DNA from: Chiloscyllium plagiosum
Taxonomy: Eukaryota
Length of the DNA: 64,000 bases
Direction of reading: 5' to 3'
Assembly (NCBI RefSeq): GCF_004010195.1
Contig: NC_057717.1
Span: forward strand, 104,096,910 to 104,160,909
In this document: in pieces, positions 3,452 to 63,647 of the stretch
Layout of the letters: every line of letters begins with the position of its first letter
Numbering within the stretch: position 1 is the stretch's first letter
Made by a program: the position numbers and the translations under genes
Notes under the pieces: generated by a model
The model's input: only the letters and a program-made list of their open reading frames with translations
Database searches by the model: none
What the model was told of the DNA's origin: nothing

Positions 3452-3886
3452 TTAAAAATGTGTTGCTGGAAAAGCGCAGCAGGTCAGGCAGCATCCAAGG
3501 AGAAGGAGAATCGACGTTTCGGGCATGAGCCCTTCTTCAGGAATGAGGAGGGTGTGCCAAGCAGGCTAAGATAAAAGGTAGGGAGGAGGGACTTGGGGGA
3601 GGGGTGTTCGGAATGCGATAGGTGGAAGGAGGTTAAGGTGAGGGTGATAGGCNNNNNNNNNNNNNNNNNNNNNNNNNNNNNNNNNNNNNNNNNNNNNNNN
3701 NNNNNNNNNNNNNAGTTAAAGTGTTCAGCCACGGGGCTGCTTGGCACACCCTCCTCATTCCTGAAGAAGGGCTTATGCCCGAAACGTCGATTCTCCTGTT
3801 CCTTTGATGCTGCCTGACCTGCTGCGCTTTTCCAGCAACACATTTGTAAGCTCTGATCTCCAGCATCTGCAGTCCTCACTTTCTCC
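3452..3886. mobile_element. Palindromic PLE-derived element spanning an assembly gap
   Basis: Inverted terminal-repeat arms, each with CTGAAGAAGGGCT(T/C)ATGCCCGAAACGTC (3513-3540 minus; 3761-3788 plus). Confidence 0.8.
3653..3713. other. Assembly gap (61 N)
   Basis: Run of N. Confidence 1.
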
Positions 3887-5058: not shown

Positions 5059-5505
<447 letters not shown>

Positions 5506-5599
5506 TAGCCAGCACTCAAGGGAGAACTCCCACCCATGTTAGGGCAGGCAGAGCCTCCATTTAACATCTCCAACAAAAGACAATAGGTCCAACAGCACA

Positions 5600-5763
5600 G
5601 CACTCCCTCCGACAGTGTGGCACTCCCTCAGCACTGACCCTCCGACAGTGTGGCACTCCCTCAGCACTGACCCTCCGACAGTGCGGCACTCCCTCAGCAC
5701 TGACCCTCTGACAGTGCGGCACTCCCTCAGCACTGACCCTCTGACAGTGCGGCACTCCCTCAG
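5600..5763 (+). repeat. 33-bp minisatellite (~5 copies) derived from a Deu-domain SINE
   Basis: Unit CAGCACTGACCCTCCGACAGTGCGGCACTCCCT, preceded by Deu-domain-like TTTAACATCTCCAACAAAAGAC. Confidence 0.85.
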
Positions 5764-10869: not shown

Positions 10870-12083
10870 TTTCTCTCACCTCACACACCTCTCCTCCTCC
10901 ACCCCCGTCTTTCCCCAACCGACCGACTCCCACAGCTACCGAGATTACACCTCCTCCCACCCTGCCCCCTGTAAAAACGCCATCCCATATTCCCAATTCC
11001 TCTGCCTCCGCCGCATCTGCTCCCAGGAGGACCAGTTCCAATACTGAACAACCCAGATGGCCTCCTCCTTCAAAGACCGCAAATTCCCCTCCGAAGTGGT
11101 CAACGACACTCTCCACCACATCTCCTCCACTTCCTGCACCTCCGCCCTAAACCCCGCCCCTCCAATCGCCACCAGGACAGAACCCCACTGGTCCTCACCT
11201 TCCACCCACTAACCTCCGGATACATCGTATCATCCTCCGTCATTTCCACCACCTCCAAACAGACCCCACCACCAGGGATATATTTCCTTCCCCACCCCTA
11301 TCAGCGTTCCGGAGAGACTATTCCCTCCGCGACTCCCTTGTCAGGTCCACACCCCTCACCAACCCAACCTCCACTCCTGGCACCTTCTCCTGCAACCGCA
11401 AGAAGTGCAAAACTTGCGCCCACACCTCCCCCCTCACCTCCCTCCAAGGCCCCAAGGGATCCTTCCATATCCATCACAAATTCACCTGCACCTCCATTTA
11501 CTGTATCCGTTGCACCCGATGTGGTCTCCTCTACATTGGGGAGACAGGCCACCTACTTGCGGAACGTTTCAGGGAACACCTCTGGGACACCTGCACCAAC
11601 CAACCCAACCGTCCCGTGGGTGAACACTTTAACTCCCCCTCCCACTCCGCCAAGGACATACAGGTCCTTGGCCTCCTCCATCGCCAGACAATGACCACAC
11701 GACGCCTGGAGGAAGAGCGCCTCATCTTCCGCCTAGGAACCCTCCAACCACACGGGATGAATGTAGATTTCTCCAGCTTCCTCATTTCCCCTCCCCCCAC
11801 CTTATCTCAGTCCCAACTCCCGGATTCAGCACCGCTCTCTTGACCTGCAATCTTCTTCCCAATCTCTCTGCCCCTACCCCCTCTCCGGCCTATCACCCTC
11901 ACCTCCTTCCACCTATCGTATTCCCAGTGCCCCTCCCCCAAATCCCCTCCCCCCCTACCTTTTATCTTAGCCCGCGTGGCACACCAGCCTCATTCCTGAA
12001 GAAGGGCTTAAGCCCGAAACGTCAATTCTCCTGCTCCTCGGATGCTGCCTGGCCTGCTATATTTTTCCAGCATCACATTTTTT
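10870..12083 (+). mobile_element. Penelope-like retroelement, 5'-truncated (RT C-terminus, GIY-YIG endonuclease, terminal repeat with hammerhead core)
   Basis: PTDSHSYRDYTSSHPAPCKNAIPYSQFLCLRRICS and IYCIRCTRCGLLYIGETG...FREH motifs, interrupted by stops and frameshifts. CTGAAGA-GGGCTTAAGCCC-GAAACGTC at 11996-12023. Confidence 0.9.
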
Positions 12084-38300: not shown

Positions 38301-38487
38301 AGTGGACACCAACAGCCAGTTTATAACAATTTTTAACTGGTTTGCAGTTTCTCCTTGTCCCTGCCACCTCTGGGTTCAGTCAGTTCATCATCTTGATAGT
38401 GATATTCTCAATCTATCTGCTGATTTTTCGGCATTTTCAAAAACTTGTATCTGTTTTTCCTCCGACTCCCTCCCCCGTCTGCTTTAG

Positions 38488-39059
38488 GGCTTAAGGGTGG
38501 TGGAGCTGCAGGTCCCAATGGCACCAACTTCCAGTACACATTCCACGGGGACCCCCATGCTGTGTTTGCTGAATTCTTTGGCGGAAGGAACCCATTCGAC
38601 ATTTTCTTTGGACAGAGAAATGGCGAAGAAGACATGGAGATTGACGATGATCCGCTGAGCTCTTTCAGTGGCTTCGGCATGGGTGGCATGGGGAACATGG
38701 GCGGCATGTCTGGCTTTCACCGAACGCGGGGCACTGCTAAGAAGCAGGACCCTCCTGTCATGCATGATCTGAAGGTTTCCCTGGAGGAGATCCTCACCGG
38801 CTGCACCAAGAAGATGAAGATCCGGCGGAAGCGGCTGAACCCTGACCGGCACACGTCCCGGCAGGAGGACACCATCCTCACCATTGAAATCAAGAAAGGC
38901 TGGAAGGAAGGGACAAAGATCACCTTCCCCAAGGAGGGCGATGAAACTCCCAACAATATTCCTGCCGATATCATCTTTGTGCTCAAGGACAAGCCACATC
39001 CAGTCTTCAAACGGAACGGGTCTGACATCATCTACCAAGTGAGGATCAGCCTCCGGGAG
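38488..39059 (+). CDS. dnajb1: DNAJB1 coding exon 2 (G/F region and CTD-I)
   Basis: Acceptor ctttAG ending at 38487, donor GTAGGT at 39060. GLKGGG...FHGDPHAVFAEFFGGRNPFDIFFGQRNGEEDMEIDD...KKGWKEGTKITFPKEGD...ISLRE. The FAEFFGGRNPFD-FFGQRNGEE motif fits DNAJB1 better than DNAJB4/5. Confidence 0.95.
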
Positions 39060-39870
39060 GTAGGTGCTGTTTTTGTATCGATACTTTTTGGTGGAGTTGC
39101 AGTGGGGGGGTCTGAGCACTCACCTGTGGGAGATTTCTATTCTCTGGAGAGACGATAGAAGCTGGATTGGTTTTTCTTGGAGCAGAGTGGTGATTTAATC
39201 ATGTGGTTCAGAATTATGAAGAGGTTTTTGACTGGGTAAGTAAGGAGTCAGTGTTGCCAATGGCAACTAAAGGGCATGTTTAAGACAATTGGCAAAGGTC
39301 ACAAATAGAAGAAAAACAAGATTTTTTCTTGTACAGTGAGTTATGATCTGGAATGTGCAGTCTGACAGGGAGGATGTGAATATTTCAAGGAAACTTAGGG
39401 CTGTAGAGAATGAGCAGCTGTTCTGGAACAAATTTGTGTAATGCACTGAATTAGCTCCCTTTGTGCTTTTGGGATTACATTTTAAAACACATGTTTTTCT
39501 TTTAAAATTGTTATCCTTCTGTGGCCTTGCTCCACCTAAACAAAACAGTTAGCTGCTTCAGCCCTACATCACTTTCCAATGTCTCCACGCTCTTCTGACT
39601 CTTACCTTATAGAGTATCATTGGTTTTCAATCTTTGACATTCTGTATCTTCAGAAGCTTACATGCTCTCACTCCTAGAGTTCCCTGTCTAGACTTTGTCT
39701 TTCTACTCTCTCCTCCTCTGAGCTTTTGGTCACCTCTCCTAACATCATTGGGTATCAAGTTCTTGTCTGTCTGCTTCTGGCAGGTCTTGGTATGTTGCTT
39801 GGCGATATATGAATGCAAGTTGTTGAGAGGTTATTCCCGTTAAACCTCCGCGTGGGCAGGTGCGTAGCTA

Positions 39871-48299: not shown

Positions 48300-48629
48300 T
48301 TAGCGTTTAAATTATGTATGCACCTTATTTGCAAATCCAAGCCTGATTGGTCGGGTCGGCTAATTAATTATTAATATTTGTTTAATATGCATAATCTGCA
48401 TATCGCGATCTGGTTAGTCAAAGGCGACAGCTACCGGCTTCCTAGTGGTCGACGGCCTTATTAAATATTAATAGGCGGGCTGCACCGCTTGCTGACTGGC
48501 TGGCACCGCTGTCAATCACAGCTCTCGGAGCTCGGGTTCCGTCCCCTGGGCGGCCGTTGCCCTGACAGGAGCCCGCGAGCTCCGCGGGAGCCGGGCCAGT
48601 GCTGATCCGAGCCGAGCCGAGCCGGGGCC
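48300..48629 (+). promoter_or_regulatory. gipc1: GIPC1 CpG-island promoter / 5' UTR
   Basis: Reverse CCAAT (ATTGG ~48346), CGCG-element-like TATCGCGATC at 48401-48410, AT-rich TATA-like stretch ~48459-48472, GC box, then CpG-dense sequence running into a Kozak GCCATG. Confidence 0.65.
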
Positions 48630-48896
48630 ATGCCGCTGGGTCGCTGGAAGAAGGCTGCTCCCTTGGTGGGAAACAACGAGGCGGATGCCGAGAGCCAGCA
48701 GCTGGAGCCGGAGGCGGCGGGCGGGGAGTCGGGGCCGGCGTCCTCCAGTTGCTCCTCGGGCCCCCCGCTGCGGCCGCGCCTGGTCTTCCACACGCAGCTC
48801 GCGCACGGCAGCGCCACCGGCCGCGTGGAGGGGTTCACCAACGTCCGTGAGCTCTACAGCAAACTGGGGGAGGCGTTCAACATGGAGCCCGCGCAG
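48630..48896 (+). CDS. gipc1: GIPC1 PDZ adaptor, coding exon 1 (GH1 domain start)
   Basis: [18 protein letters not shown]...[43 protein letters not shown] matches GIPC1 (MPLGLGRRKKAPPLVENEEA...[25 protein letters not shown]). Donor CAG|GTCAGT at 48897; phase 0. Confidence 0.92.
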
Positions 48897-51080
48897 GTCA
48901 GTGAGGGGTCAACATGGGGCCCGCGCAGGTCAGTGAGGGGTCAACACGGGGCCCGCGCAGGTCAGTGAGGGGTCAACACGGGGCCCGCGCAGGTCAGTGA
49001 GGGGTCAACACGGAGCCCGCGCAGGTCAGTGAGGGGGCAACATGGGGCCCGCGCAGGTCAGTGAGGGGTCAACACGGAGCCCGCGCAGGTCAGTGAGGGG
49101 TCAACATGGGGCCCGCACAGGTCAGTGAGGGGGCAACGTGGCACCCGAGCAGGTCAGTGAGGGGTCAACATGGAGCCCGAGCAGGTCAGTGAGAGGTCAA
49201 CATGGAGCCCGCGCAGGTCAGTGAGGGGGCAACATGGAGCCCGCGCAGGTCAGTGAGGGGTCAACATGGGGCCCGCTCAGGTCAGTGAGGGGGCAACATG
49301 GGGCCCGCTCAGGTCAGTGAGGGGGCGAGGGGTCCACATGGGGCCCGCGCGGGTCAGTGAGGGGTCCACATGGGGCCCGCGCGGGTCAGTGAGGGGTCCA
49401 CATGGGGCCCGCGCGGGTCAGTGAGGGGTCCACATGGGGCCCGCGCAGGTCAGTGAGGGAGAGGGGTCAACATGGAGCCCGCACAGGTCAGTGAGGGGTC
49501 AACATGGGGCCCGCACAGGTCAGTGGGGAGGGGCGGGGTCAACATGGAGCCTGCACAGGTCAATGAGGGCGCGGAGGGGTCAACATGGAGCACGCGCAGG
49601 TCAGTGAGGGGTCAACATGGGGCCCACGCAGGTCAGTGAGGGAGTGGTAAACAGGGAGCCCGCGCAGGTCAGTGAGCGGGTGAGGGGTCAACGTAGAGCC
49701 CGCGCAGGTCAGTGAGGGGTCAACATGGAGCCCGCGCAGGTCAGTGAGGGGGAGGGGTCAACTTGGGGCCCGCGCAGGTCAGTGAACGCGGGAGGGGTCA
49801 ACATGGGGACCGCGCAGGTCAGTGAGGGGGGGAGGGGTCAACATGGGGCCTAGGCAGGTCAGTGAGAGGTCAACATAAGGCCCGTGCAGGTGTCAACATG
49901 GGGCCCACGCAGCTCAGTGAGGGGTCAACATGTGGCCCGCGCAGGTCAATGAGGGGTCAACATGTGGCCCGCGCAGGTCAGTGAGGGGTCAACATGGAAT
50001 CCACGCAGCTCAGTGAGGGGTCAACATGGGGCCCGCGCAGGTCAGTGAGGGGACAACATGGGGCCCATGCAGGTCAGTGAGGGGTCAACATGGGTCCCGC
50101 GCAGGTCAGTGAGGGGTCAACATGGGGCCCCACGCAGGTCAGTGGGAAGGGGTCAATATGGGGCCCATGCAGGTCAGTGATGCGGGGTCAACATGGGGCC
50201 CGCACAGGTCAGTGATGCGGGGTCAACATGGGGCCCGCGCAGGTCAGTGGGAAGGGGTCAATATGGGACAAACGCAGGTCAGTGGGAAGGGGTCAACATG
50301 GGGCCCGCGCAGGTCCGTGGGAAGGGGTCAACCTGGGGCCTGTGCAGCTCAGTGGGAAGGGGTCAACCTGGGGCCTGTGCAGGTCTGTGAGGCGGGGTCA
50401 ACATGGAGTCCGCGCAGGTCAGTGGGAAGGGGTCAACATGGAGCCCGTGCAGGTCTGTGAGGCGGGGTCAACATGGGGCCCGCGCAGGTCAGTGGGAAGG
50501 GGTCAACATGGAGTCCCCGCAGGTCAGTGGGAATGGGGCAACGTGGAGTCCGCGCAGGTCAGTGGGAAGGGGTCAACATGGAGTCCACGCAGGTCAGTGA
50601 GGAGGGGGCAACGTGGAGCCCGCGCAGGTCAGTGGGAAGGGGTCAACATGGAGCCCGCGCAGGTCAGTGGGAAGGGGTCAACATGGATCCCGCGCAGGTC
50701 AGTGGGAAGGGGTCAACATGGAGCCCGCGCAGGTCAGTGGGAAGGGGTCAACATGGATCCCGCGCAGGTTAGTGGGAAGGGGTCAACATGGAGTCCGTGC
50801 AGGTAAGGGGGAGGGGTCAACATGTGGCCCGCGCAGGTCAGTGGGAAGGGGTCAACATGGATCCCGCGCAGGTCAGTGGGAAGGGGTCAACATGGAGCCC
50901 GCGCAGGTCAGTGGGAAGGGGTCAACATGGATCCCGCGCAGGTTAGTGGGAAGGGGTCAACATGGAGTCCGTGCAGGTCAGGGGGAGGGGTCAACATGTG
51001 GCCCGCGCAGGTCAGGGGTAGGGGTCAGTATGAATCCCACACAGGTCATGGCAGGGTGAAAGGGGTGAACATGGATCCCG
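48877..51080 (+). repeat. GC-rich minisatellite (32-bp then 35-bp units, roughly 60 copies) derived from the GIPC1 exon1/intron1 junction
   Basis: Unit TCAACATGGAGCCCGCGCAG|GTCAGTGAGGGG = last 20 nt of the exon plus the first 12 nt of the intron. Distal units read ...GTCAGTGGGAAGGGG... Confidence 0.95.
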
Positions 51081-51520
51081 CCCAGTCAAGGGGAGGGGGG
51101 CGGAGTGAGGAGAGTGGGAGAAGAGGATGAAGGAAGGTTAGAGGGAGGATGAGGGCGAGGCATTCACTATTGAGTCGGCCAAGGTCAGGGAGGGAAAGGG
51201 GAGATAGGGAGGTAGTGTGTGGGAAAGGGGTGAGGTGGAAGGGGAGGGGAAGGCGGAATGGGTAGGGAGGATAAGGAATAGGGCTTCAACATCGAGCTGG
51301 CCCATGTCAGGGGAAGAAGGGAGGGATGAGCAGAGAAGTGTTGGGGGGGGGCGGGGGGCAAGGAGGAAGGGAAGGGTTGGAGAAAGGGCAGTGGAGGGAA
51401 GGGATTGGGTGGGAAGGACAAGTGGGGAGAAAGCATGGGAATGGATGAAGAGGGGGTACGTGGAGAGTGTGAGTGTGAGCAGAGGGAGAGGAGGTGGAGG
51501 AATGAGGGTGAGAATGTGAA
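51081..51520 (+). repeat. Purine-rich (GGA/GGGA) low-complexity tract after the minisatellite
   Basis: Strong G/A strand bias. Confidence 0.75.
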
Positions 51521-52389
51521 ACTGAGGAAATCTGGGGTTGTGTTGTTGAATGTGTGGAAGGAAAGGAAGGCAGTGGAAGATTTGATCCTTGTTGATGGCC
51601 TTGTAGGTCAACCAACTGTTTGAGGAATGGACACTGTCCGAGAGAGACATGTTCTGCACCCTGGTGAGACAGGGAAGAGCAGCAGAAACACATGTGGGAA
51701 TCATCAGCCTGGGGAAGAACTAGAGTGCACAGGGTGACCTTGGGATCTAGGAAAGGCAACCTTTGGGGATGAACAGGGATGGTACCTGGAGGGATGGTAT
51801 GGTGAGAAGTCTTGTGTTATAAAGACCGGCGTTGACTTGTTGCAGTGAATGGTCTGTTTCTGTACTATATTTGACATCAGCATTAATGTCTGGCACTGTA
51901 CTGTTGTTTTGTTCCTGTGTTTCCTGCAGTTGTGGCATCTTAATTCCTTTCTTTAAAAAAACCATTAATAATCCTGGATTGAACAAAGTCCATGCATTGC
52001 TGCATCAATGTAATGTTATTGGTAATCTGTGGCGTATGGTTGGAAAACTATAGGAAGACTGAGGATTTTGAGGACTTGCCATGCTAAAGTTCAACTCTGG
52101 GAAGAGGAGTTATTCTGTGACAGTGTCAGTGAACCATATTTCAGTACAGGGAAGACAAAAGGAAACCTTTTTGAGACAACATATTGCAAGCTTGTCATGA
52201 GGGGGAAATAACATGAGAAATAGGCCACATGTCCCTGCAAACTATTCAACAAACTTGTAATTGATCCACAACCAGTGGGTTATAGTTTAACAATATGGGT
52301 TAAGCCATTTATGTGTAGAAATTTCTTCACTGGAAAGTGGTGAGCCTGTGGAATTATCTGCCAGAGAACAGTTGAGGCCACAACATTTA

Positions 52390-52534
52390 CAGGGCAACCT
52401 CGATTATCTGAATGATGCAGGAGGCCAGTATTTTGTTTGGATAATAGAGTGATTGGATAACACAGTTTAGCAAAGCATCAGGACCTTGAGATCTTGTTTG
52501 GATCTTTGACGTTTGGATAATCGAGGTTGTCTTG
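52390..52534. mobile_element. Small Tc1/mariner-pogo (Tigger-like) MITE inserted in a CR1 remnant
   Basis: Imperfect TIRs taCAGGGCAACCTCGATTATCTGAA ... TTTGGATAATCGAGGTTGTCTTG. Confidence 0.6.
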
Positions 52535-53089
52535 TTAGATATACTCTGGGCTAAAGGGATCAAAGTGTATGGGGAGAAAGCGGGACCAGGGTTTGAGTGG
52601 GCTGATACAAAAACAGAAATTGCTGGAGAAACTCAGCAGGTCTGGCAGCATCTGTGGGGTAGAAAACAGAATTTAGCTGAACTGAAGAAGAGTCACTGGA
52701 CTTGCAGTGTTAACTCTGCTTTCTGTCCACATGCTGCCAGACCTGCTGAGTTCTCCAGCATCCACAGTTCTTTGTTTTATTTATGTGAGGGGGCTGGGTT
52801 TGATGATCATATTGAATAATGGAGCAGGCTCCAAGGACCGAATGACCTAATCTGCTCCTGTTTATTGTTTCCCATTTCATCTCCTGTTCTAGTCCTCGAT
52901 TTTCTCTCGAGCTAACGAGCAAACAAAACAAAGTCTTAAATGTGCTTAATGGCTGAGCTTCCACAGCCTCTTGAGTAGCGAGTTTCAAAGCTTGATCCTC
53001 CAAGTGAGGAAATTCCTCCTCATCGCGTTCCTAAATGATCAACCCTTTATACTAGGGTGGTGCTGTATAGTCTGTGACTCTTGAGCTGG

Positions 53090-54212
53090 GAAAATTGGCT
53101 CAAAGTTTGTGAGAAGATTTGTAGCTCGGGTGCTCGTTGTTGTGGTTCTGTTCGCCGAGCTCGGAATTTGTGTTGCAGACGTTTCGTCCCCTGTCTAGGT
53201 GACATCCTCAGTGCTTGGGAGCCTCCTGTGAAGCGCTTTTGTGATCTTTCCTCCGGCATTTGTAGTGGTTTGAATCTGCCGCTTCCGGTTGTCAGTTCCA
53301 GCTGCCCGCTGCAGTGGTCGGTATATTTGGTCCAGGTCGATGTGTTTGTTGATAGAATCTGTGGATGAGTGCCATGCCTCTAGGAATTCCCTGGCTNNNN
53401 NNNNNNNNNNNNNNNNNNNNNNNNNNNNNNNNNNNNNNNNNNNNNNNNNNNNNNNNNNNNNNNNNNNNNNNNNNNNNNNNNNNNNNNNNNNNNNNNNNNN
53501 NNNNNNNNNNNNNNNNNNNNNNNNNNNNNNNNNNNNNNNNNNNNNNNNNNNNNNNNNNNNNNNNNNNNNNNNNNNNNNNNNNNNNNNNNNNNNNNNNNNN
53601 NNNNNNNNNNNNNNNNNNNNNNNNNNNNNNNNNNNNNNNNNNNNNNNNNNNNNNNNNNNNNNNNNNNNNNNNNNNNNNNNNNNNNNNNNNNNNNNNNNNN
53701 NNNNNNNNNNNNNNNNNNNNNNNNNNNNNNNNNNNNNNNNNNNNNNNNNNNNNNNNNNNNNNNNNNNNNNNNNNNNNNNNNNNNNNNNNNNNNNNNNNNN
53801 NNNNNNNNNNNNNNNNNNNNNNNNNNNNNNNNNNNNNNNNNNNNNNNNNNNNNNNNNNNNNNNNNNNNNNNNNNNNNNNNNNNNNNNNNNNNNNNNNNNN
53901 NNNNNNNNNNNNNNNNNNNNNNNNNNNNNNNNNNNNNNNNNNNNNNNNNNNNNNNNNNNNNNNNNNNNNNNNNNNNNNNNNNNNNNNNNNNNNNNNNNNN
54001 NNNNNNNNNNNNNNNNNNNNNGGTGTTCTTCTTCCTCTTTTTGCAGTTCTGGTGTACTGCAGTGTGTTGTGGCCCTTTTGAACAGTGTCTAGATGCAACT
54101 TCTTTTGTGTGTGTTGGAGTGGTTGCTTTCATCATTGGCTCATCCAGCATCATCCTGTGGGATAAGGGATTTATCCAGGGTTCTGTTTTCACCCTTGGTT
54201 CAAATAAAATGT
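53090..54212 (-). mobile_element. Penelope-like element (gap inside) with an intact-looking hammerhead core
   Basis: Minus frames show SNHSNTHKRSCI.TLFKRATTHCS (RT C-terminus) and REFLEAWHSSTDSINKHIDL (GIY-YIG end); hammerhead motif at 53175-53214. Confidence 0.85.
53397..54021. other. Assembly gap (625 N)
   Basis: Run of N. Confidence 1.
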
Positions 54213-54440
54213 TTGCTGTTTGGCCATTGCCATAGAATGCTGCTTCAAACCAGTTGCTGAGCTAACAATTTCAAATGGAATGTTGTTCCTGAAATGTTAA
54301 CATGACTGTCCTGTGGGTGTAGAACCTTGCTGTTTGGCCATTGCCATAGAATGCTGCTTCAAACCAGTTGCTGAGCTAACAATTTCAAATGGAATGTTGT
54401 TCCTGAAATGTTAACATGACTGTCCTGTGGGTGTAGAACC
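54213..54440 (+). repeat. Perfect 114-bp tandem duplication
   Basis: 54213-54326 equals 54327-54440. Confidence 0.9.
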
Positions 54441-56524
54441 AAACTCATTCTCCATAACAAATATAATCTTCTTCCAAAAGTGAGGGGAACGATGAAACAA
54501 TTCTTCTGTCATTCCAGGTTCTATGACAGAGTCCCAAAATTGTTTCTTGTCCCTTCTTTAACTGGTCATGGGTTAAGAGCGTCACTGACTAGATCAGCAT
54601 GAAATGCATGTTCTTAATTGGTCTAAAGGCAAGAGTTTGCCCCATCATTGTGGACCTGAGTCATTTATCAATTGACAGTGGCTAGGCCAGTTTTAATTCC
54701 AGATTTTTATCAAAATCAAGTTTCCCCATCTGCCATGGTGGGTTTCAAACACATGTTTCTAGAATGTTAGGCCTGTGTTCTGGATTACTAGTCCATTGGC
54801 ATTAGCACTGCAACTCTAATGCGTTGCAGTGCTAATGCCACAGGTGTGCATGAGTTGTGTTGATGATTTTTGCAGTGAGTGGAAAAGCAAAATTTTAGGT
54901 TCAAGTATCCCCAGAGAACAGGACAATCAACAACAGCATTTCCCAAAGAACATTTTTACCAGCCTCTAGTCTGGTGACAGCCAGTATTACGTACCAGGCT
55001 TCCAGTAGGTAACAGTGCTTCTTTGAGTTGATTAAGGTTTTGCTTGTTTAGACACGTGGCTGTAATAACACGTTGCAAATAGATTCCTTATGAGGGTTGG
55101 TCTCAGTGGATCGGCTAATTGTTATACCATGCAACCTCCAACTTACCTTTATAACATCTTCATGAAATATGATTGGATATTTTACAGGGACAGTTATCCT
55201 TACGTGGCTCAGTTCTATTTGATATGTTGGAAGAACTTGGTCAAAGAGGGAGATTTTTCTAGAGCTTATTCAAAGGAGCTGAAGTTTAGGGAGGAGAATT
55301 CAGGGTTCAGGGCCTTAGAAATGGTGTGAGGGCTATCAGTGATGGAGCAATCAAAAGTTAGGGATGCATCGGGATTAGGGGAGTTGCTTGTTACTCCTTG
55401 TATCATCCAGTTTTGATATTTTGCCATTTACTGTATGTCTACCCTGACTTAATAATCAGTTTTTGTACAAAGACTTCAATTATACATCCTGCTGGTATTG
55501 ACTGTTGATTGTTCATACAAGTTTATCTCTGGTTGCTGTTTGAGACATCGCAGTGTGTTTATTCACTCTTGCACTTCACAAGGCTGCTGCATACCCTGGT
55601 GTACAGCTGCTGTACTGTGGAACTGAATATCTTTTTCAGGGCTGCAGCAGTGAAGAATGAGTTCCTAAGGGAAAGGTAGTTAAAAATACAAACCGCCTTG
55701 GAGTTGCAGCTCGGATTAGGGACCAACAACAGTGATAGCTTGGTCCTTTTCCCTTTCGGAGGAGTGACTTTTAGCAGCAGTGATACAACGTCTGCTAAAC
55801 TGGCATCGGAGCCCCTGAATGAAGGAAGAGAAAATGGGGTCAGGTTCCCATCCAGCTTCCCTTGCAGAAAATGAACAATGTCAGTAAATGATAAGGATGT
55901 GTGAGCTTAGTTTGTGACGCTTCAGAATCAAGAGTGAATCTGATTTTGAGGTGTTTAATGTAGTCGGATGTTTGAATAGAGCTGGTTGAAGGAAACATGC
56001 AAACCTATGAACACATGAAGTTGGAGCAAAAGTAGACCATTCAGTCCCTTGGGTCTGGTCAACCATTCAATAAGATGATGAATGACCTGCTTGTGTTTCA
56101 AATTCCACGTTTCCATCCCTGATAACCCTTAATTCCCCCCTGCTTACCAAGAACGTATCCAGGGTGGTTTAAAAATATTCAGTGGAGGATTAGTCTTTTA
56201 GCCCCTGCATCTGTTCTGCCATTCAGCTGGATCATGACCTTTCTCTTGCCTCCATCTACTCATCTTGGTTCCACATCCCTGAAGATCAATGACCAGTAAT
56301 CCACTTTTTCTGGGGAGTGGGAAGAGTTTCAGATTTCCATTACTGTATGCGTGAAGAATGGCATTCTGACATCACTCCTAAAAAACCTACTGCTAATTTT
56401 GATGTGTATAGCAACGGTTTTAGACTTTTGGTCTTCTCCAAACACATCAATTCTACCTTATTGCTCCAAACCATAAAGTTGACAGTTTGTGCCCTATCAT
56501 CTTTTTGAACCCATTTTTAGCTCT

Positions 56525-57745
56525 TGATTGATTTTATTGTTGTCACATGTACCGAGATTTTGAGTGTTTTGTGTACTATACAGACAGTACCATACAAAAG
56601 TGCATACAGAATGTGGAATGCAGTGTTACAGCAACAAAGAAGATGCAGAGAGAGAAAGAGATCAGAATTGCATTTGAGAGGTCCATTCAAAAGTCTGATA
56701 ACAGCAGAGAAGAAGCTGTCCTTGAATCCATTTGCGCGTGTAGTCAGATGTTTATATCATCTGCTCAAAATAAAAAGATGGAAGAGAGTGTAGCTAGAGT
56801 CGGAGGGGTCTGTGATGATGTTGGTTGCTTTCCCAAAGCAGCAGGAAGTATAGATGGAGTCAATGGATGGGAGGCTGGTTTGCGTCATAGACTGAGCTGT
56901 ATTCACCACTCTGGGTAGTTTCCTGCAGTCTTGGGAAGAAGCAGTTGCCATCCCACACTGTGCTGCATCCAGATGGAATGGTGCATCCATAAAAATTGGT
57001 TAAGAGTCTTTGTGGACATGCTGAATCTCTTTAGTTTCCTGAGGAAGTCAAACCATTGTTGTGCTTTCTTGACTGTCACATCAACACAGGTAGACCAGGA
57101 CAGATTGTTGGTGATCGTCACTTCCAGGAACTTGATGCTCTCGACCATCTCCACCTCAGCACCATTGACACAGACAGGGACATGCCCTCCAATCCGCTTC
57201 CTGAAGTCAATGAGCCGCTCCTTCATTTTGCTGACGTGGATGGAGAAATTGTTGTATTTATACCATGCTGCACTCAATCTCTTTCCTCCACTCTATCTCA
57301 TCATTGTTTGTGATCTGACCTACAACGGTGGTGTCATCAGCAAACTTGTAAATGGAGTTGGGATGGAATTTCGCCATATGCTTGAGAGTATATAAAGAGT
57401 ATAGTAGGGGGCAATCTAAGCAGCTTTTTGGGACACCGGTGTTGAGGATTATGATGGAGGAGGTGTTGTCACCTATTCTTACTGATGGCTGTCTGTAGAT
57501 CAAGGAGTTGAGGATCCAGTTATAGAGGTGGGAGCCGAGATCTAGGTCTCAGTTTGTTTGGAATTAGGTGTTGAAGGTGGAACTGTAGTCAATAAATTGG
57601 AGCCTGATTGTAGGTATCCTTGTTATCAAGGTGTTCTAGGGATGAGTATAGGGCCAGAGAGCTGTCATCTGCCTGTTGTACCGGTAAGCGAATTGCAAAG
57701 AATTAATAATTATTCCTAAAGATTCATAATTATTGAGGTCAGAGC
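56525..57745 (-). mobile_element. Rex1/Babar LINE fragment (RT)
   Basis: QPSVRIGDNTSS...LNTGVP...PLLYSLYT...IYKFADDTTVVGQITNNDE and IDFRK...VEMVESIKFL.VTITNNLSWS. Confidence 0.85.
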
Positions 57746-58091
57746 CACTAGGTGGTCCACCCAGGATCTAAGTGCATAGGTGGAGCCTCCATCCAGGCCA
57801 GTCACTTGCTGTGGGTTCACTCTCAAAAAGGCCGATCTAACGTCTGTGGCAGTGACTGTGGGTACAGATTACATCCGAGGCTGTGTAAATAGGTCTCTGT
57901 CCCAGCCAATCCATCTGTCAGCTAACATGCAAACCACGTTTGTGAATCTTACACGATTTTCCCAGCGTTGGAAGCCACAGGCCTTCCTTGACACCTGGCC
58001 TTTTATTTCTCTTTTTGTTATTTACGATCAGCTCTGCATTGTCTTTGAAGTATAGGTGCACCCTTATACACGTAACTGGATGTTGTACTTG

Positions 58092-58512
58092 GAGAAAGTG
58101 AGGATTGCAAATGCTGGAGATCAGAGTCGAGTGTGGCACTGGAAAATCACAGCAGCTCAGGCAGCATCCAAGGAGGAGAATCAACGTTTCGTGGCATAAG
58201 CCCTTCAGGAATGGATGAAGCCATTCCTGTTGAAGGGCTTATGCCCAACATGTCGATTTTCCTGCTCCTCTGATGCTGTCTGACCTGTTTGATTAGATTA
58301 GATTCCCTACAGTGTGGAAACAGGCTCTTCAGCCCAACAAGTCCACACCGACCCTCCAAAGAGTAGCCCACCCAGTCCCATTTCCCTCTGACTAATGCAT
58401 CTAACACTATGGGCAATTTATCAGACACTGGGAGAAAGTCACCCAAGGCTGGAATTGAACCTGGTGCTGTGAGGCAGCAGTGCTAACCACTGAGCCACTG
58501 CCCATCTCGACT
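58092..58512. mobile_element. Palindromic PLE-derived insertion with a nested minus-strand V-SINE (58290-58503)
   Basis: 16-bp direct repeat CTGGATGTTGTACTTG at 58076-58091 and 58513-58528. Confidence 0.8.
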
Positions 58513-59361
58513 CTGGATGTTGTACTTGCCTAGGATACAGTGTACAAAACTTCCAATAAGACTTCACTGGCCGTGAAAGAATCTGGCCATCCCAATGACT
58601 TTAAAATTGCTGCGTAATTACATGTTCCTTCTTTGTGGTTAACCACAAACTGATATTGCAGGCTGGTGTGTGACCTATATCCTTGCTTTCTGTATGAGAG
58701 CTAATTCTGAATTGCTGTTTGTTCAGTATTGAGGGGAAGGTGTGAATCTGAGTGACAAGTAAACCAATCAGTTTATTAAAGTCTGTTGTCAGTTCATATA
58801 CTCTAATTAAAATTTAATAAAGGATTTGATAAGGTAGGTACAAGGATGTGTCTATTTGTCAGTGGGAAGACAGAGTCCCGAACAAATCTAGTGAGGCATT
58901 TGAGAGCATGTTCTCTGTTACAAGTGATTATTAGACTTTGTAATTAGCTACTGCAGGGAGTGGTGGTTGAAAATCAAACGTATTGGAGGTAGCTAGATAA
59001 ATGCATGATGGAGAAAGGAATCCCAGGATGAAATGATGGCATGGGAGGAGGTTCATATGGAAAATAACCAACAGCATGGACAAGCTGGTTAAACATCTGT
59101 TTCTGGGCTGTCGATTTTGTATAATTCTATGCAGTACAATATAACTCATAATCTCTACTAGCTGAATGTAACCCTGTATTATAAGGAGTACTTCTCTAGT
59201 CTCTAACGCCTAATGTCAATTTCTTTCTTTTTTGAATAAAGGCACCCCACAAAACTATGGAGAAGTGTCTGTCACGTGCCTGTGCGTGCACATGATATTT
59301 GCATAAGCATTTGGTTGTCACAGACCAGCCTAACTGCATGTTTTCCTGTGTTACCCAATAG

Positions 59362-59547
59362 ATTATGTTCTGCACTCTGAACACCCATAAAGTGGACATG
59401 GACAAACTGCTAGGTGGGCAAATTGGCCTCGAAGATTTCATCTTTGCTCATGTCAAAGGGCAGAAGAAAGAAGTTGAAATCTACAAATCAGAAGATGCTC
59501 TGGGTCTTACCATCACTGACAATGGAGCAGGCTATGCATTTATCAAG
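59362..59547 (+). CDS. gipc1: GIPC1 coding exon 2 (GH1 end / PDZ start)
   Basis: Acceptor aatAG ending at 59361, donor GTAACT at 59548. [62 protein letters not shown] (186 nt), nearly identical to GIPC1. Confidence 0.95.
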
Positions 59548-62099
59548 GTAACTCTTGAAAACATTTTTGTGTGAAATAGTGGGGAATTGGATTCCTAAGC
59601 AATTAAATGAGCTATACATATAAAGCTTGCGAACAATGAATTTTGGATATTCTGGCTTCGAGAATACATGAAGTCCACATTATGCAGTATTAACTGAGAT
59701 GGATAAATTAACTTATGCCTGACTATGGGTCTCTTGTTGTACAAGGAAATTAGGGACACGCAATCTTATGAGCATTTCTTTCAGCTGTTGAAATATAATT
59801 GAGTTTATTGTCTCACCCAAAAGGGAGTTCCCTTTGATAGGATGGCACTCCCTCTGTACAGTGTCTGGGAGCATAAACGTTGATTCTGAACTAAATAATG
59901 TAGGGGCAGTTGAAAACGTTGTGCCCTGTTGAACCTGCTCCACCATTCAGTATGATCATGCTTGATCAGACTTCAATTCCACTTCTATGCCCACCAATAA
60001 TCCCTAAGACCTCTCTCTTCCAGTTTTTGATATGTTAAACCATGGAGCATTCTCAACCCTTTGGAATAGAGAATTCCAAAGATTCCCAAACCACTGACTG
60101 AAGAAAGTTCTCATCTCTGTCCTAAAACTCTGCCTTCTTAATCTAAATTCCCCAGTGGCGGAAACACCTCTGTATGTACTCTATCAAGCCCCCTTCATTA
60201 TCATGAGCTTTCCACTGAGATAATTTTTCCTTTCTCTAAACTCCAGAGAGTATAAACCCAATTTATTCCATACCTCATTCACACCAACCCTCTTTGAGGT
60301 GGGATTTGATTCCATGGCATTCTGACTTGAATGAGCATGCTATCCACTGAGTCACACCTGACTCCAGAAGTGAATTCCCCAGCGGAAACATTGATTTGGA
60401 GATCCACCCAGAGCTGAAGGGAGCAGTTATGCAGGTTTCACAAGCCTAACTGGTACTGATTTTTAAGGGATGGATAAGGTTAGGAAACGTGAAAGTTGCC
60501 TTTGACCTTTTCAAAGCATAGCACACCCCAGAGAGTTGCAAATATTCTCCCTGTTTTAAGGGGCTATTAACTTGATTGAGCATGATGCATCTCCCCAAGA
60601 AAAGTTTGTTTCTTTCTTACAAGTCACAATTTTCAAGATTGACAAAGAAAGAAAGTAGATGGGAATTTTAAATGTATTGAATTGTGATCTGGAAAGTGCT
60701 GTCTGAAAGGATGTTGGAAGCAAATTCATAGTAACTTTCAAAAGGTAATGAATATATACCTGAACAGAAAACTATTAGGTCTACAGGGGAAACGGAGGAG
60801 TAGGGGGACTAATTGGATATTTCATTCAAAGAACAAGCACAGGCTCAATGGGTCAGATGACTTCCTTCTGTTTGTTATTCTGATATTTATCAAGAAAATC
60901 ATAATAAACTATATTAAGCTGGGCAAATGGTTGGTAAGAGTTTATTACAAACACTGAAAAGGAAAGAAATTTAACTATTCCTTTTATCCCAACAATATTC
61001 TTGCAAACATCTATCTTTGAGCCAAACATTCATCTTTCTAATCTAATGTGCTCTATGCCAATTTGCATGTGGCTCAGTTTATAATGAAGAGATTATTTTT
61101 GAGATTCTGCCTGTTAAGTTGGTGCCTAGCTTGTCGTACTAATTGTATAGAACCACCTTCTTTGTCCTACTTATGTCATTGTTATCTACGTGGAAAAAAA
61201 CAACTGAATCCTCAACCTCACATTGTAAGTGCTTCTTCAGCCCTGAGCAGACTTCCCAAACCCTGACTCTGAGCCATCTGGATCTGCAGTCTTTACTGTA
61301 GAGAACAGCGTCTGTCCCCATACTATCTGTCCAATACTACCAGTGCATTCCTCCTCAATCTTCCCACTTTTCATACGCACAGGTATACACGTGCCTTACC
61401 TGACTGGCACCATGGTTCAGGAAGCCAATCATCCTGCTGTCCTCTCCTTCATCCAGAAGGAACTTTGAACCTATGAGGCAATTGCAAAAGCTGAGACATT
61501 AGTCTCTGGGTCCCCTTACCTGTTTTAATTGCAAATCACAATTTGCTGTCCCTGAAAACTGACCACATCAAATGATCCACCTGCAAGAGGTGTGACTTCC
61601 TCCTAGTACAAAGAATCCAGGTAATTTCCCTTTCCCAGTACATTGCAGTACAGCCTCCAATCGAGTTGTGGCTGCTTGAACTTCAACCACTTGCTGTAGG
61701 CATATTTCCCCTGGACCAAACTGACATTCAGGTGTTTCCACCTTCTGTAATTGTGAAACATCACTTATCCTGCTATCCTTAATGTTTTTTCTCGGAACTG
61801 CTTAGTTATTTTGTTGAATTTTATATTTAGTTATGTTTTATATCTTGCAGGGAGATGGTGGCATAATGCTATTATCACTGGACTAGTATCACAGATTAAT
61901 CTTCTGGTCTAAATAAAAACTGAAAGAACTTCGGATGCTGAAATCAGAAGCAAAAACAGAAATTGCTGGAAAAGTTCAGCAGGTCTTGGCAGCATCTGTG
62001 AAGAGAAATCAGAGTGACCCTTCTTCAGAACTGATGTAGTTGGGAAGAGGTCGGTTTATATGCATTTTCCAGCAATTTCTATTCTTGTTTCTAATATTC

Positions 62100-62612: not shown

Positions 62613-63466
62613 ACATGGTTCAAAATACTACCATGACAGATGGTGAAATTGGATTTCACTAAAAATCTGGAATTAAAAAGGTTGGCCTAATAGTGACCAT
62701 GTAACCACTGTTGATTGTTGTAGGAATCCATCTGGCTCACTAATGTCCTTTTTAAGGAAATGAATTTATCATCCTTATCTGGTCTGGTCTGTATGTGACT
62801 TAACAGCAGTATTGGTGTTTAAAATAAATGCTGGTCTAGGCAGTGACACAATTTGTGATGCTAATTTGCACCATAGTAATAGAATAAGCGTTAATCACTG
62901 ATCACATAGTCACCAAATAACCAGCTATTTTTCCTGTAGTAGAATAAGAATTAATTTCTGAGGCTGAAAAAGTTTGGGAAAAAGAAAAAAGCCACAGAAC
63001 ATATCATTCCCTCCTCCCCTTAACTCAAATCACTTAACATTGGCATACTATTTTAAATTGGCTAGTTTTACATACTTCTACAGCAACATGCCTATCTGAC
63101 ACACTTAATAAGAATTGAGATTGAGCTTTTTCTTTAATAAGCTGCTCTTTTGTACCCCTGTCTTCTGCAGTGACAGAGGCCTATCCCAGCCAGTGCTGTA
63201 CTCCCATCTTGTGCAGTGGCAGAGGCCCTGTCCCTGCCAGTGCTTACCCCAGTGTTGTGCACTGGTAGAGGCCTCTCCCCAAGTTACCAACTACCTCTGT
63301 ATGTGGCCATAGTCAGTGCCCATTGGTACCCCAGACAGGTTATTCAAAAATCCTTTTGCTTTATGTTCTCTTACCCCCCACCATTTCACTAGTAATGAGT
63401 CTGACAACAATACAAAATGGAGTTATGAAACAGCCCCACCTTTAAAAACTGTGATTTAATTGCCAG

Positions 63467-63647
63467 AGAATCAAAGAAGGAAGCCTCATTGACCGAATAG
63501 AGGCAATCAAGGTTGGGGATCTAATTGAGTCGATCAATGGCCAGAGTGTCATCGGTTTTCGCCACTTCGAGGTTGCCAAGCTGCTGAAAGGTCTGGTGAA
63601 GGGACAGCTGTTTACACTGCGTCTTGTGGAGCCTCTTAAGGCTTTCG
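63467..63647 (+). CDS. gipc1: GIPC1 coding exon 3 (PDZ domain); gene continues beyond the window
   Basis: Not in the ORF track. Acceptor gccAG ending at 63466, donor GTGAGT at 63648. [60 protein letters not shown] (181 nt). Confidence 0.93.

What the first reader, a model, noticed from the sequence alone, without database searches (positions are those of the whole stretch)
48877..51080. GIPC1 5' splice site amplified ~60-fold into a minisatellite: an array of decoy donors
Seen: the repeat unit is the last 20 nt of coding exon 1 plus the donor (TCAACATGGAGCCCGCGCAG|GTCAGTGAGGGG), so the intron opens with about 2.2 kb of repeated CAG|GTCAGT sites. Only the first donor (48897) is productive. The donors at 48929 (+32) and 48961 (+64) shift the frame, and every later donor, including the in-frame +96 one at 48993, includes the TGA at 48966-48968. 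Inference: competing donors could send transcripts to nonsense-mediated decay, making repeat copy number a dial on GIPC1 output, or the array could act as a U1 snRNP/hnRNP-H sink. If the first donor always wins, that selectivity needs explaining.
Basis: partly seen in the sequence, partly recalled or inferred. Interest (0 to 1): 0.82.

Follow-up and report, generated by a model that had tools for sequence, protein, structure and literature searches.

The report
Splice-donor minisatellite in shark GIPC1 intron
A tandem repeat of about 63 units has copied the end of the first coding exon of a shark GIPC1-like gene, splice donor included, into its first intron; the same arrangement is already documented in several human genes, where the first donor is normally the one used.

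Summary
A 32-35 nt minisatellite (48877-51025, about 63 units) starts in the last 20 nt of the first coding exon of a GIPC1-like gene. It repeats the donor 9-mer CAG|GTCAGT 45 more times in intron 1. All 59 donor-like decoys would give a premature stop. Orthologs show the exon end is ancestral, so the array was copied from the exon/intron junction.

One public-run contig joins 48896 directly to 59362, so the first donor is used. No contig carries unique exon 1 sequence into the array, but contigs drop rare forms, so low-level decoy use is untested.

The architecture is not new. The literature describes minisatellites whose first monomer spans an exon-intron boundary in F7, IFI6/6-16, CBS, LMNB2, PDGF and ABCA7. 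In F7 minigenes only the most upstream donor is used. In ABCA7 repeat length lowers expression, but not through NMD.

The donor core is not better conserved than the rest of the unit (p=0.11). Donor 1 is not more accessible in folded RNA than the decoys (rank 43 of 46).

Verdict: a real, large, probably near-neutral member of a known class. The dial and sink ideas are untested, and the human precedents do not favour them. Copy number and polymorphism could not be verified.

The parts
48630..48896 (+). First coding exon of the GIPC1-like gene (CDS part, 89 codons, ends ...[10 protein letters not shown], phase 0)
   Evidence: ORF and sequence. Pfam GIPC1_GH1 profile positions 1-37, E 4e-15. 100% identical to NCBI 'GIPC1-like isoform X2 [Chiloscyllium plagiosum]'.
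48877..48908 (+). First repeat unit: last 20 nt of the exon, then the authentic donor (G at 48897) and GAGGGG
   Evidence: Identical 32 of 32 to the unit at 49197. A public-run contig leaves the window at 48896 and continues with exon 2.
48877..50116 (+). Proximal part of the array: mostly 32-nt units ending GTGAGGGG, with some 36-41-nt variants
   Evidence: Unit list; TRF period 32.
50117..51025 (+). Distal part of the array: mostly 35-nt units ending GTGGGAAGGGG
   Evidence: Unit list; TRF period 35.
50678..51025 (+). Higher-order repeat: a five-unit block of 174 nt present twice
   Evidence: The blocks 50678-50851 and 50852-51025 are 169 of 174 identical.
48966..48968 (+). In-frame TGA, included in any exon extension from donor 48993 onward
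   Evidence: ORF 48606..48968. 57 of 59 decoys include it.
50803..50811 (+). Variant decoy CAG|GTAAGG (G at 50803), the only one with A at +3
   Evidence: One search list; unit at 50783.
51026..51700 (+). Degenerate, G-rich, purine-rich tail after the array
   Evidence: GC skew up to +0.785; 13 runs of G>=4 and no runs of C>=4.
59362..59547 (+). Exon 2 (62 codons, [17 protein letters not shown]...AFIK), the acceptor partner of donor 48897
   Evidence: AG at 59360-59361 and GT at 59548. Pfam GH1 positions 39-67. 57 of 62 identical to PDB chain 5v6b_A GIPC1.
63467..63647 (+). Exon 3 (PDZ domain part)
   Evidence: AG at 63465-63466 and GTGAGT from 63648. Pfam PDZ, E 2.4e-07. Matches orthologs.

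Best explanation
This is a minisatellite born by tandem duplication of a roughly 32-nt segment straddling the exon 1/intron 1 junction of a GIPC1-like gene. Unequal exchange then expanded and diversified it to about 63 units. It sits in the intron as largely neutral DNA. The spliceosome uses the most upstream donor (48897) with the acceptor at 59362. The 45 identical and 14 near-identical downstream donors stay silent or are used only rarely, as shown experimentally for the same architecture in human F7 intron 7. Shown here: the structure, the derived direction (exon to array), the unproductive outcome of every decoy, and the existence of the donor 1 to exon 2 junction. Inferred: silence of the decoys, the most-upstream-site rule as the reason, and neutrality.
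For: Structure. Direction: the junction position is conserved in all 18 aligned GIPC proteins, from rays to chicken. The residues NMEPAQ that the unit encodes are shared by 4 orectolobiform species and resemble G[IL]EPAE or GLHPSE in the others, so the exon end predates the array. Donor 1 is used: a 642-nt contig of run X15 (depth 21.8) covers 48400-48896 and continues with 28 nt that match the window only at 59362-59389. Exon 1 and exon 2 rebuild one Pfam GH1 domain. The NCBI model has ...NMEPAQ|IMFCTLN. No X15 piece other than that contig covers 48860-48878 (bin depth 22.6 against 21.8), so read-through past donor 1, which any decoy use requires, was not retained in the contigs. No selection on the decoys: donor 9-mer mismatches are 24 of 549 against 48 of 732 in non-CpG exon-derived columns, Fisher p=0.11 (61 of 64 units). 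CpG columns decay fastest, 34 of 244. A real evolving array: 52 of 63 units are distinct, there are two length subfamilies, and a 174-nt higher-order block is 169 of 174 identical between its two copies. Precedent: in F7 IVS7 five to nine identical sites occur and only the most upstream functional one is used, even against pseudo-sites improved to a consensus value of 91. Deleting monomers did not change the pattern (PMC1557585: abstract and passages read).
Against: The RNA evidence is one contig from a run of unstated type. Contigs drop rare variants, so decoy use of up to perhaps 10-20% cannot be excluded. Array words are present in X15 at summed depth up to 276. That could be intron RNA, DNA in the run, or decoy-extended transcripts. 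In IFI6/6-16, CBS and ABCA7 the first one or two pseudo-sites are used at some level (PMC1557585 introduction; PMC5954066), so complete silence is not the rule. The array keeps CpG o/e at 0.52-0.58 against 0.24-0.34 in the flanks and a strong G skew, so it may not be inert chromatin. Neutrality is an inference: no population or cross-species DNA was available.
Confidence: 0.7

Rival explanations
1. Decoy-donor dial. A fraction of transcripts splice from downstream donors, acquire a premature stop and are degraded by NMD, so array length tunes GIPC1-like output.
For: All 59 donor-like decoys give a premature stop. Forty-five are identical to the authentic 9-mer. Donor 1 is not structurally favoured: its unpaired probability ranks 43 of 46. 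In ABCA7 a one-unit-retention PTC transcript exists and rises with cycloheximide, and in CBS and 6-16 the proximal pseudo-sites are used (PMC5954066 passages; PMC1557585 introduction).
Against: The only junction recovered is donor 1 to 59362, and no contig reads from unique exon 1 into the array. F7 pseudo-sites do not compete even when strengthened (PMC1557585). [quoted passage not shown] Donor cores are not preferentially conserved. No decoy-spliced or read-through ORF at 90% identity or more appeared among the 30 hits of the short-protein search.
Confidence: 0.1
2. A cis-acting element that works independently of decoy splicing. The array extends the promoter CpG island by about 2.1 kb with a G-rich non-template strand and 45 U1-binding sites. 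This could favour R-loops, hypomethylation, U1-dependent suppression of premature polyadenylation, or hnRNP-H/F binding, and so affect transcription or elongation locally.
For: GC is 0.62-0.71 and GC skew +0.2 to +0.35 across the array, rising to +0.785 in the tail. CpG o/e is 0.58 and 0.52 in the array against 0.90 in promoter plus exon 1 and 0.24-0.34 in the flanks. There are 94 runs of G>=4 against 2 of C>=4 in 2129 nt. No AATAAA or ATTAAA occurs in 48897-53396. ABCA7 VNTR length lowers expression by a route other than NMD (PMC5954066).
Against: All of this follows from the composition of the copied unit and needs no selection. Only 4 canonical G4 motifs occur. CpG columns are decaying. As a global U1 sink, 45 sites per pre-mRNA is negligible against the very high U1 copy number per nucleus (recalled, not tested). 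There are no expression or methylation data.
Confidence: 0.12
3. Assembly artefact: the array, or most of its copy number, does not exist in the animal.
For: The window has N gaps (3653-3713 and 53397-54021), the second inside the same intron. A perfect 114-nt x2 duplication follows that gap. I could not lay long DNA reads across the array.
Against: 52 of 63 units are distinct, with ordered subfamilies and a diverged higher-order block. Mis-assembly does not create these. Short contigs of run X15 carry array-type words, including variants. There is no N inside the array. Existence is therefore robust; only the exact count is uncertain.
Confidence: 0.04
4. Recursive (ratchet-type) splicing. Each unit's AG|GT could serve as a 3' site that regenerates the donor, so the array is removed stepwise and leaves no trace in the mRNA.
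For: Every intact unit has CAG|GTCAGT. Joining the exon's terminal CAG to a later unit's GTCAGT recreates the original junction (sequence).
Against: The stretch before each AG (ATGGGGCCCGCGC) is G/C-rich, not a polypyrimidine tract. No good branch-site match is evident by eye, and the units are only 32-35 nt apart. No data bear on it.
Confidence: 0.03

Closest known systems
Human F7 intron 7 37-bp VNTR (Borensztajn et al. 2006, PMC1557585: abstract, introduction, results and discussion passages read)
   Same: The first monomer spans the exon/intron boundary. The authentic donor is followed by identical pseudo-donors, and only the most upstream site is used physiologically. The units are G-rich.
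   Different: F7 has 5-9 units, with 4 nt of exon per unit, a weak TGG|gtgggt donor and an internal exon. Here there are about 63 units, 20 nt of exon per unit, a stronger CAG|GTCAGT donor (8 of 9 to consensus) and the first coding exon next to the promoter CpG island. Polymorphism is not shown here.
Human IFI6 (6-16) intron 2 minisatellite (Turri et al. 1995, seen only as cited and described in PMC1557585)
   Same: The donor is reiterated many times (25 pseudo-sites) by a boundary-spanning minisatellite.
   Different: [quoted passage not shown] Here the two proximal decoys shift the frame and no such product was seen. Raw reads were not available to test this.
Human ABCA7 intron 18 25-bp VNTR (De Roeck et al. 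2018, PMC5954066: abstract and passages read)
   Same: The VNTR starts at the exon's splice donor, alleles are very long (12 to about 427 units), and use of the second unit's donor gives a PTC transcript. This is the closest precedent for copy number acting as a dial.
   Different: The ABCA7 units begin at the GT and include no exon sequence. Length correlates with lower expression and exon 19 skipping, but the authors found no length effect on NMD. No expression or length data exist for the shark array.
Human CBS exon 13/intron 13 31-bp VNTR, and the LMNB2 and PDGF boundary repeats (Yang 2000, Lievers 2001, de Stanchina 1997: seen only as citations and one-sentence descriptions in PMC1557585)
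   Same: Boundary-spanning minisatellites that reiterate the exon/intron junction. CBS has a near-identical unit length (31 bp) and 15-20 repeats.
   Different: CBS uses two pseudo-sites. LMNB2 and PDGF units are 100 and 81 bp. None lies in intron 1 beside the promoter.

Membership tests
Minisatellite whose first monomer spans an exon-intron boundary (F7 / IFI6 / CBS / LMNB2 / PDGF / ABCA7 class) | Head-to-tail array with a minisatellite-size unit (about 10-100 bp) | tested here: met
   TRF period 32/35, 62.8 copies, score 2040.
Minisatellite whose first monomer spans an exon-intron boundary (F7 / IFI6 / CBS / LMNB2 / PDGF / ABCA7 class) | The first monomer contains the authentic exon/intron junction | tested here: met
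   Unit 1 is 48877-48908 and the donor G is at 48897. The junction is validated by the Pfam GH1 split, a spliced contig and ortholog proteins.
Minisatellite whose first monomer spans an exon-intron boundary (F7 / IFI6 / CBS / LMNB2 / PDGF / ABCA7 class) | The exact donor sequence is reiterated in the intron | tested here: met
   46 exact CAGGTCAGT among 203 GT sites. 60 sites match the consensus at 7 or more of 9 positions.
Minisatellite whose first monomer spans an exon-intron boundary (F7 / IFI6 / CBS / LMNB2 / PDGF / ABCA7 class) | The most upstream donor is the one used in the mRNA | tested here: met
   The X15 contig joins 48896 to 59362. The NCBI protein model has the same junction. This shows presence only, not a proportion.
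Minisatellite whose first monomer spans an exon-intron boundary (F7 / IFI6 / CBS / LMNB2 / PDGF / ABCA7 class) | Downstream pseudo-sites are silent, or only the first one or two are used | tested here: inconclusive
   No contig reads from unique exon 1 into the array, but contigs drop rare forms. The raw-read run X20 laid nothing.
Minisatellite whose first monomer spans an exon-intron boundary (F7 / IFI6 / CBS / LMNB2 / PDGF / ABCA7 class) | Copy-number polymorphism among individuals (VNTR) | not testable with these tools
No whole genome is held.
GIPC1 (GH1-PDZ-GH2 adaptor) | GH1 and PDZ domains in the family order | tested here: met
   PF25083 spans exons 1 and 2, and PF00595 is in exon 3.
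GIPC1 (GH1-PDZ-GH2 adaptor) | Closer to GIPC1 than to GIPC2 or GIPC3 | tested here: met
   NCBI names the 100%-identical protein and 14 chondrichthyan orthologs 'GIPC1-like'. Whole-protein identity is 71% to gar GIPC1, 67% to chicken GIPC1 and 65% to the same shark's GIPC2. The margin is small and no tree was built.
GIPC1 (GH1-PDZ-GH2 adaptor) | C-terminal GH2 (myosin VI-binding) domain | not tested
   It lies beyond the window's end. It is present in the matching NCBI proteins by their precomputed Pfam.
Recursive splice site (AG|GT ratchet point) | Polypyrimidine tract and branch site upstream of the AG|GT | tested here: not met
   The consensus before the AG is ATGGGGCCCGCGC, read directly from the units. 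It is G/C-rich, with 6 of 13 pyrimidines.

The most novel reading that the evidence does not exclude
The array is a length-dependent cis-modulator of GIPC1-like output. With about 45 perfect U1 sites, about 94 G-runs and a CpG-rich, G-skewed 2.1 kb placed directly after the first exon, allele length would set promoter-proximal elongation or splicing commitment, with or without a small NMD-targeted decoy fraction. That would make this a natural model, an order of magnitude larger than F7, for how the spliceosome ignores dozens of perfect donors.
Probability: 0.1. Interest if true: 0.5.

Novelty: new member of a known kind. Interest (0 to 1): 0.3.

Why it matters
It adds a non-mammalian and unusually large example, with 45 identical pseudo-donors at the first intron and next to the promoter, to a small set of natural experiments on 5' splice-site choice. 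If the decoys are silent, the most-upstream-site rule seen in human F7 minigenes would extend to cartilaginous fish and to far higher site numbers. If they are used, it would be a frameshifting, NMD-coupled VNTR in a conserved trafficking adaptor. It also matters for annotation. Gene predictors and short-read assemblers can break or mis-splice at such arrays, and one relative's gene model stops inside the repeat-homologous part of the exon.

Tried and rejected
1) The whole-genome search for other copies of the unit was not possible, because no genome is held.

2) Sequencing-run search: no RNA holder listed. All holders are of guessed or unknown type.

3) Read laying. X5 (contigs) and X20 (raw single-cell polyA reads) laid nothing, which is no test. 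X1 laid one 151-nt contig on 48437-48555 only. A filter removes records that resemble human DNA, so holes prove nothing. Joints to 59362 could therefore only be seen as loose ends, and copy number could not be checked.

4) Earlier findings of this scan returned nothing by place or by sequence.

5) The short-protein search for decoy-spliced or read-through ORFs gave 30 hits among 32 candidates. The best is 80% identical and none is 90% or more. This is uninformative rather than negative.

6) RNA-structure masking of decoys is rejected as an explanation. Donor 1's unpaired probability is 0.0007, the decoy median is 0.009, and donor 1 ranks 43 of 46.

7) Preferential conservation of the donor core is not supported (p=0.11). 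The units are not independent. One unit with a 1-nt insertion (50117) is counted as mismatches in later columns, which slightly understates donor conservation.

8) There is no identity gradient away from the exon. Units identical to the exon unit over 26 nt occur at 49197, 49720, 50643, 50713 and 50887. Mean identity is 0.87 for adjacent units and 0.847 for units 10 or more apart.

9) A coding role for the array is rejected. Its longest ORF (50216-50806, 196 aa) has no Pfam hit, and no array peptide appears in the 18 aligned orthologs.

10) Rfam at gathering threshold found nothing in the window.

11) Correction: my notebook says exon 2 is 58 of 62 identical to the PDB GIPC1 chain. Recounting the alignment gives 57 of 62.

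12) The third protein-database search, with an array ORF to look for orthologous arrays, was not spent. Short-read contigs fragment the array (37-61 nt pieces), so ORFs could not be expected.
Full report
OBSERVATION. The region was read directly and scanned with Tandem Repeats Finder. One array spans 48877-51015, with period 32, 62.8 copies, 82% matches and score 2040. It can also be read as period 35 from 48868 to 51027. Splitting on the unit's first nine bases gives 64 unit starts between 48877 and 51066. Of the 63 units delimited, 27 are 32 nt and 22 are 35 nt, and 52 of 63 are distinct sequences. The proximal part (to about 50116) is the 32-nt form ending GTGAGGGG. The distal part is a 35-nt form ending GTGGGAAGGGG. 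A five-unit block of 174 nt occurs twice (50678-50851 and 50852-51025) at 169 of 174 identity. The array contains no N. The window's N runs are at 3653-3713 and 53397-54021.

GENE CONTEXT. The ATG is at 48630 and the frame runs to CAG at 48896 (89 codons), followed by GTCAGT. Exon 2 begins at 59362 after an AG and ends at 59547 before GTAACT. Exon 3 is 63467-63647. Pfam places GIPC1_GH1 profile positions 1-37 in exon 1 and 39-67 in exon 2, and a PDZ domain in exon 3. So joining 48896 to 59362 rebuilds one domain. Exon 2 is 57 of 62 identical to PDB chain 5v6b_A, named GIPC1. Exon 1 is 100% identical to an NCBI protein named GIPC1-like isoform X2 of Chiloscyllium plagiosum. There were 177 hits with E<=0.001 among 465 candidates.

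DECOYS. Of 203 GT dinucleotides in 48891-51110, 46 carry the 9-mer CAGGTCAGT, including the authentic one. Sixty sites match CAG|GTRAGT at 7 or more of 9 positions. I modelled each as a donor joined to exon 2. Only 48897 leaves the frame open. Donors 48929 and 48961 shift the frame and stop inside exon 2. The other 57 include the in-frame TGA at 48966-48968.

DIRECTION OF ORIGIN. I aligned 18 GIPC proteins: 15 chondrichthyan GIPC1-like, gar GIPC1, chicken GIPC1 and the same shark's GIPC2. The exon 1/exon 2 junction falls at the same column in all of them. The residues NMEPAQ that the repeat unit encodes are shared by four orectolobiform species and resemble GIEPAE, GLHPSE and GMESAE in the others. 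The exon end is therefore ancestral, and the array is a copy of the exon/intron junction, not the reverse. None of the 18 proteins contains array-derived peptide.

RNA EVIDENCE. No whole genome is held. The run search, using exon 1 plus three units, listed 24 runs. Eighteen hold part of the stretch, and none is on record as RNA (see Tried and rejected). Run X15 (type not stated, organism B) gave a 642-nt contig of depth 21.8. It covers 48400-48896 and then continues with 28 letters that match the window exactly once, at 59362-59389. This is the donor 1 to exon 2 junction. It must have been made by splicing, whether the run holds cDNA or, less likely, a processed retrocopy. In the 48860-48879 bin the summed depth is 22.6 against 21.8 for that contig alone. 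So no other retained contig joins unique exon 1 sequence to the array. If X15 were plain genomic DNA, that path should be there at full depth, so the run most likely holds RNA-derived sequence. Short contigs of 37-61 nt carrying array-type words are present, with summed depth up to 276. They could be intron RNA or DNA. Contigs drop rare variants, so this shows that donor 1 is used and dominant in that run, not that decoys are never used. X5 and X20 laid nothing, and X1 laid only 48437-48555.

TESTS OF SPECIAL PROPERTIES. (a) Selection on the donors, across 61 of 64 units. The three units dropped are a 23-nt unit, a 75-nt composite and the last degenerate one. The donor 9-mer has 24 of 549 mismatches to consensus, the non-CpG exon-derived columns 48 of 732, and the CGCG columns 34 of 244. 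Donor against non-CpG gives Fisher p=0.11, and the units are not independent. So there is no sign that donors are kept by selection, and CpG decay is visible. (b) RNA accessibility, by local folding with a 150-nt window and 100-nt span. The probability that the 9-mer is unpaired is 0.0007 for donor 1 and a median of 0.009 for the decoys, and donor 1 ranks 43 of 46. Structure does not explain first-donor use. (c) Composition. GC is 0.62-0.71 and GC skew +0.2 to +0.35 through the array, reaching +0.785 in the G-rich tail at 51200-51599. CpG o/e is 0.90 for promoter plus exon 1, 0.58 and 0.52 for the two array halves, and 0.24-0.34 for the flanks. There are 94 runs of G>=4 against 2 of C>=4, only 4 canonical G4 motifs, and no AATAAA or ATTAAA in 48897-53396. 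All of this follows from the composition of the copied unit. It permits a local chromatin or elongation role but does not demonstrate one.

WHAT IS KNOWN. A full-text search led to Borensztajn et al. 2006 (PMC1557585: abstract, introduction, results and discussion passages read). Its introduction describes exactly this class: minisatellites with their first monomer spanning an exon-intron boundary, so that the donor is reiterated in the intron. Its examples are IFI6/6-16 intron 2 (25 pseudo-sites, the two proximal ones used), CBS intron 13 (15-20 repeats, two pseudo-sites used), LMNB2 (10-15 repeats of 100 bp, only the authentic site used), PDGF intron 4 (16-18 repeats of 81 bp) and F7 intron 7 (5-9 repeats of 37 bp). 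With 50 minigene constructs the authors show four things. [quoted passage not shown] Inactivating sites activates the next most upstream functional one. Pseudo-sites improved to a consensus value of 91 still do not compete. Deleting monomers or mutating G triplets changes nothing. They also found no explanatory secondary structure, which agrees.

A second search led to De Roeck et al. 2018 on ABCA7 (PMC5954066: abstract and passages). There a 25-bp VNTR starts at the exon 18 donor and ranges from about 12 to about 427 units. A one-unit-retention transcript with a premature stop rises under cycloheximide. Expression falls with length, but the authors state that VNTR length had no effect on NMD. 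The supplements of these papers were not consulted.

MECHANISM. Most likely (0.7), the first donor is chosen by the same most-upstream-site preference documented for F7. It may be reinforced at a first exon by cap-proximal U1 recruitment; that point is recalled textbook knowledge and was not tested. The array would then be spliced out with the intron as near-neutral DNA that evolves by unequal exchange. Shown: the structure, the derived origin, the unproductive decoys, and use of donor 1. Inferred: silence of the decoys, the rule behind it, and neutrality. The rivals are an NMD dial (0.1), a splicing-independent cis effect of the G-rich, CpG-rich U1-site block (0.12), an assembly artefact (0.04) and recursive AG|GT splicing (0.03).

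VERDICT. The feature is real and correctly described. It is a new and unusually large member of a known kind, in a shark and in intron 1. The regulatory readings remain open but get no positive support here. Copy number, polymorphism and conservation in related sharks could not be checked with the tools available.

Noticed in passing
window 38424-39158 (+): An open frame with a strong DnaJ C-terminal domain hit (PF01556, E 2.1e-25). A DNAJB-type gene lies about 10 kb upstream on the same strand. From memory, a GIPC-DNAJB neighbourhood also exists in human, both for GIPC1-DNAJB1 and for GIPC2-DNAJB4, so this does not separate the paralogs.
   Followed up: partly
window 53397-54021 and 54213-54440: A 625-N assembly gap lies inside intron 1. 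About 190 nt after it comes a perfect 114-nt x2 tandem duplication (100% matches), possibly a scaffold seam artefact.
   Followed up: no
window 51026-51700: After the array comes a degenerate, purine-rich, G-rich tract (GGGAGG/GGAAGG-like) with GC skew up to +0.785. It may be the decayed older end of the array or an unrelated low-complexity run.
   Followed up: partly
window 5625-5763: A 33-nt tandem repeat, 4.2 copies, 98% matches. Its reverse complement shares a GGTCAGTG core with the GIPC1 unit. This is probably coincidence and was not tested.
   Followed up: no
window 56903-57548 (-): Two overlapping open frames lie in intron 1 on the opposite strand. One has a Pfam ALKBH8_N hit (E 7.9e-06). 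They look like a retroelement remnant; that is an inference, since no reverse-transcriptase domain was scored.
   Followed up: partly
window 11151-11843 (+) and 5059-5508 (+): A weak GIY-YIG hit (20.7 bits, below the 22.6 cut-off) and a marginal Vps4_C hit (22 bits against a 21.3 cut-off). They may be a Penelope-like element fragment and an AAA-ATPase exon respectively.
   Followed up: no
window 48437 (run X1, organism A): The single contig of X1 matches 48437-48555 exactly, but upstream it carries 32 letters unlike the window. X15 has G>T at 48436. There is no AG before 48437, so this looks like a species difference or a chimeric contig rather than an upstream exon.
   Followed up: no
protein P0122 (eukprot model, 89 aa, 80% identical to exon 1): This gene model from a relative stops at ...GEAFNME, three residues before the exon end and inside the repeat-homologous part. 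A contig break at a repeat in that species could explain it. It is a weak hint that the array is shared.
   Followed up: partly
protein P0011 (Mobula birostris isoform X1), alignment A1 columns 119-172: A predicted isoform carries a 54-residue, non-repetitive insertion exactly at the exon 1/exon 2 junction. This suggests an alternative exon or retained intron sequence at the same intron in a ray.
   Followed up: no
protein P0002 (the 100% match, isoform X2, 288 aa): This isoform ends ...DTELGMMVVFLKQVRM in place of the conserved GH2 C-terminus seen in the 323-333 aa orthologs. It is an alternative 3' end that would lack most of the myosin VI-binding domain.
   Followed up: no
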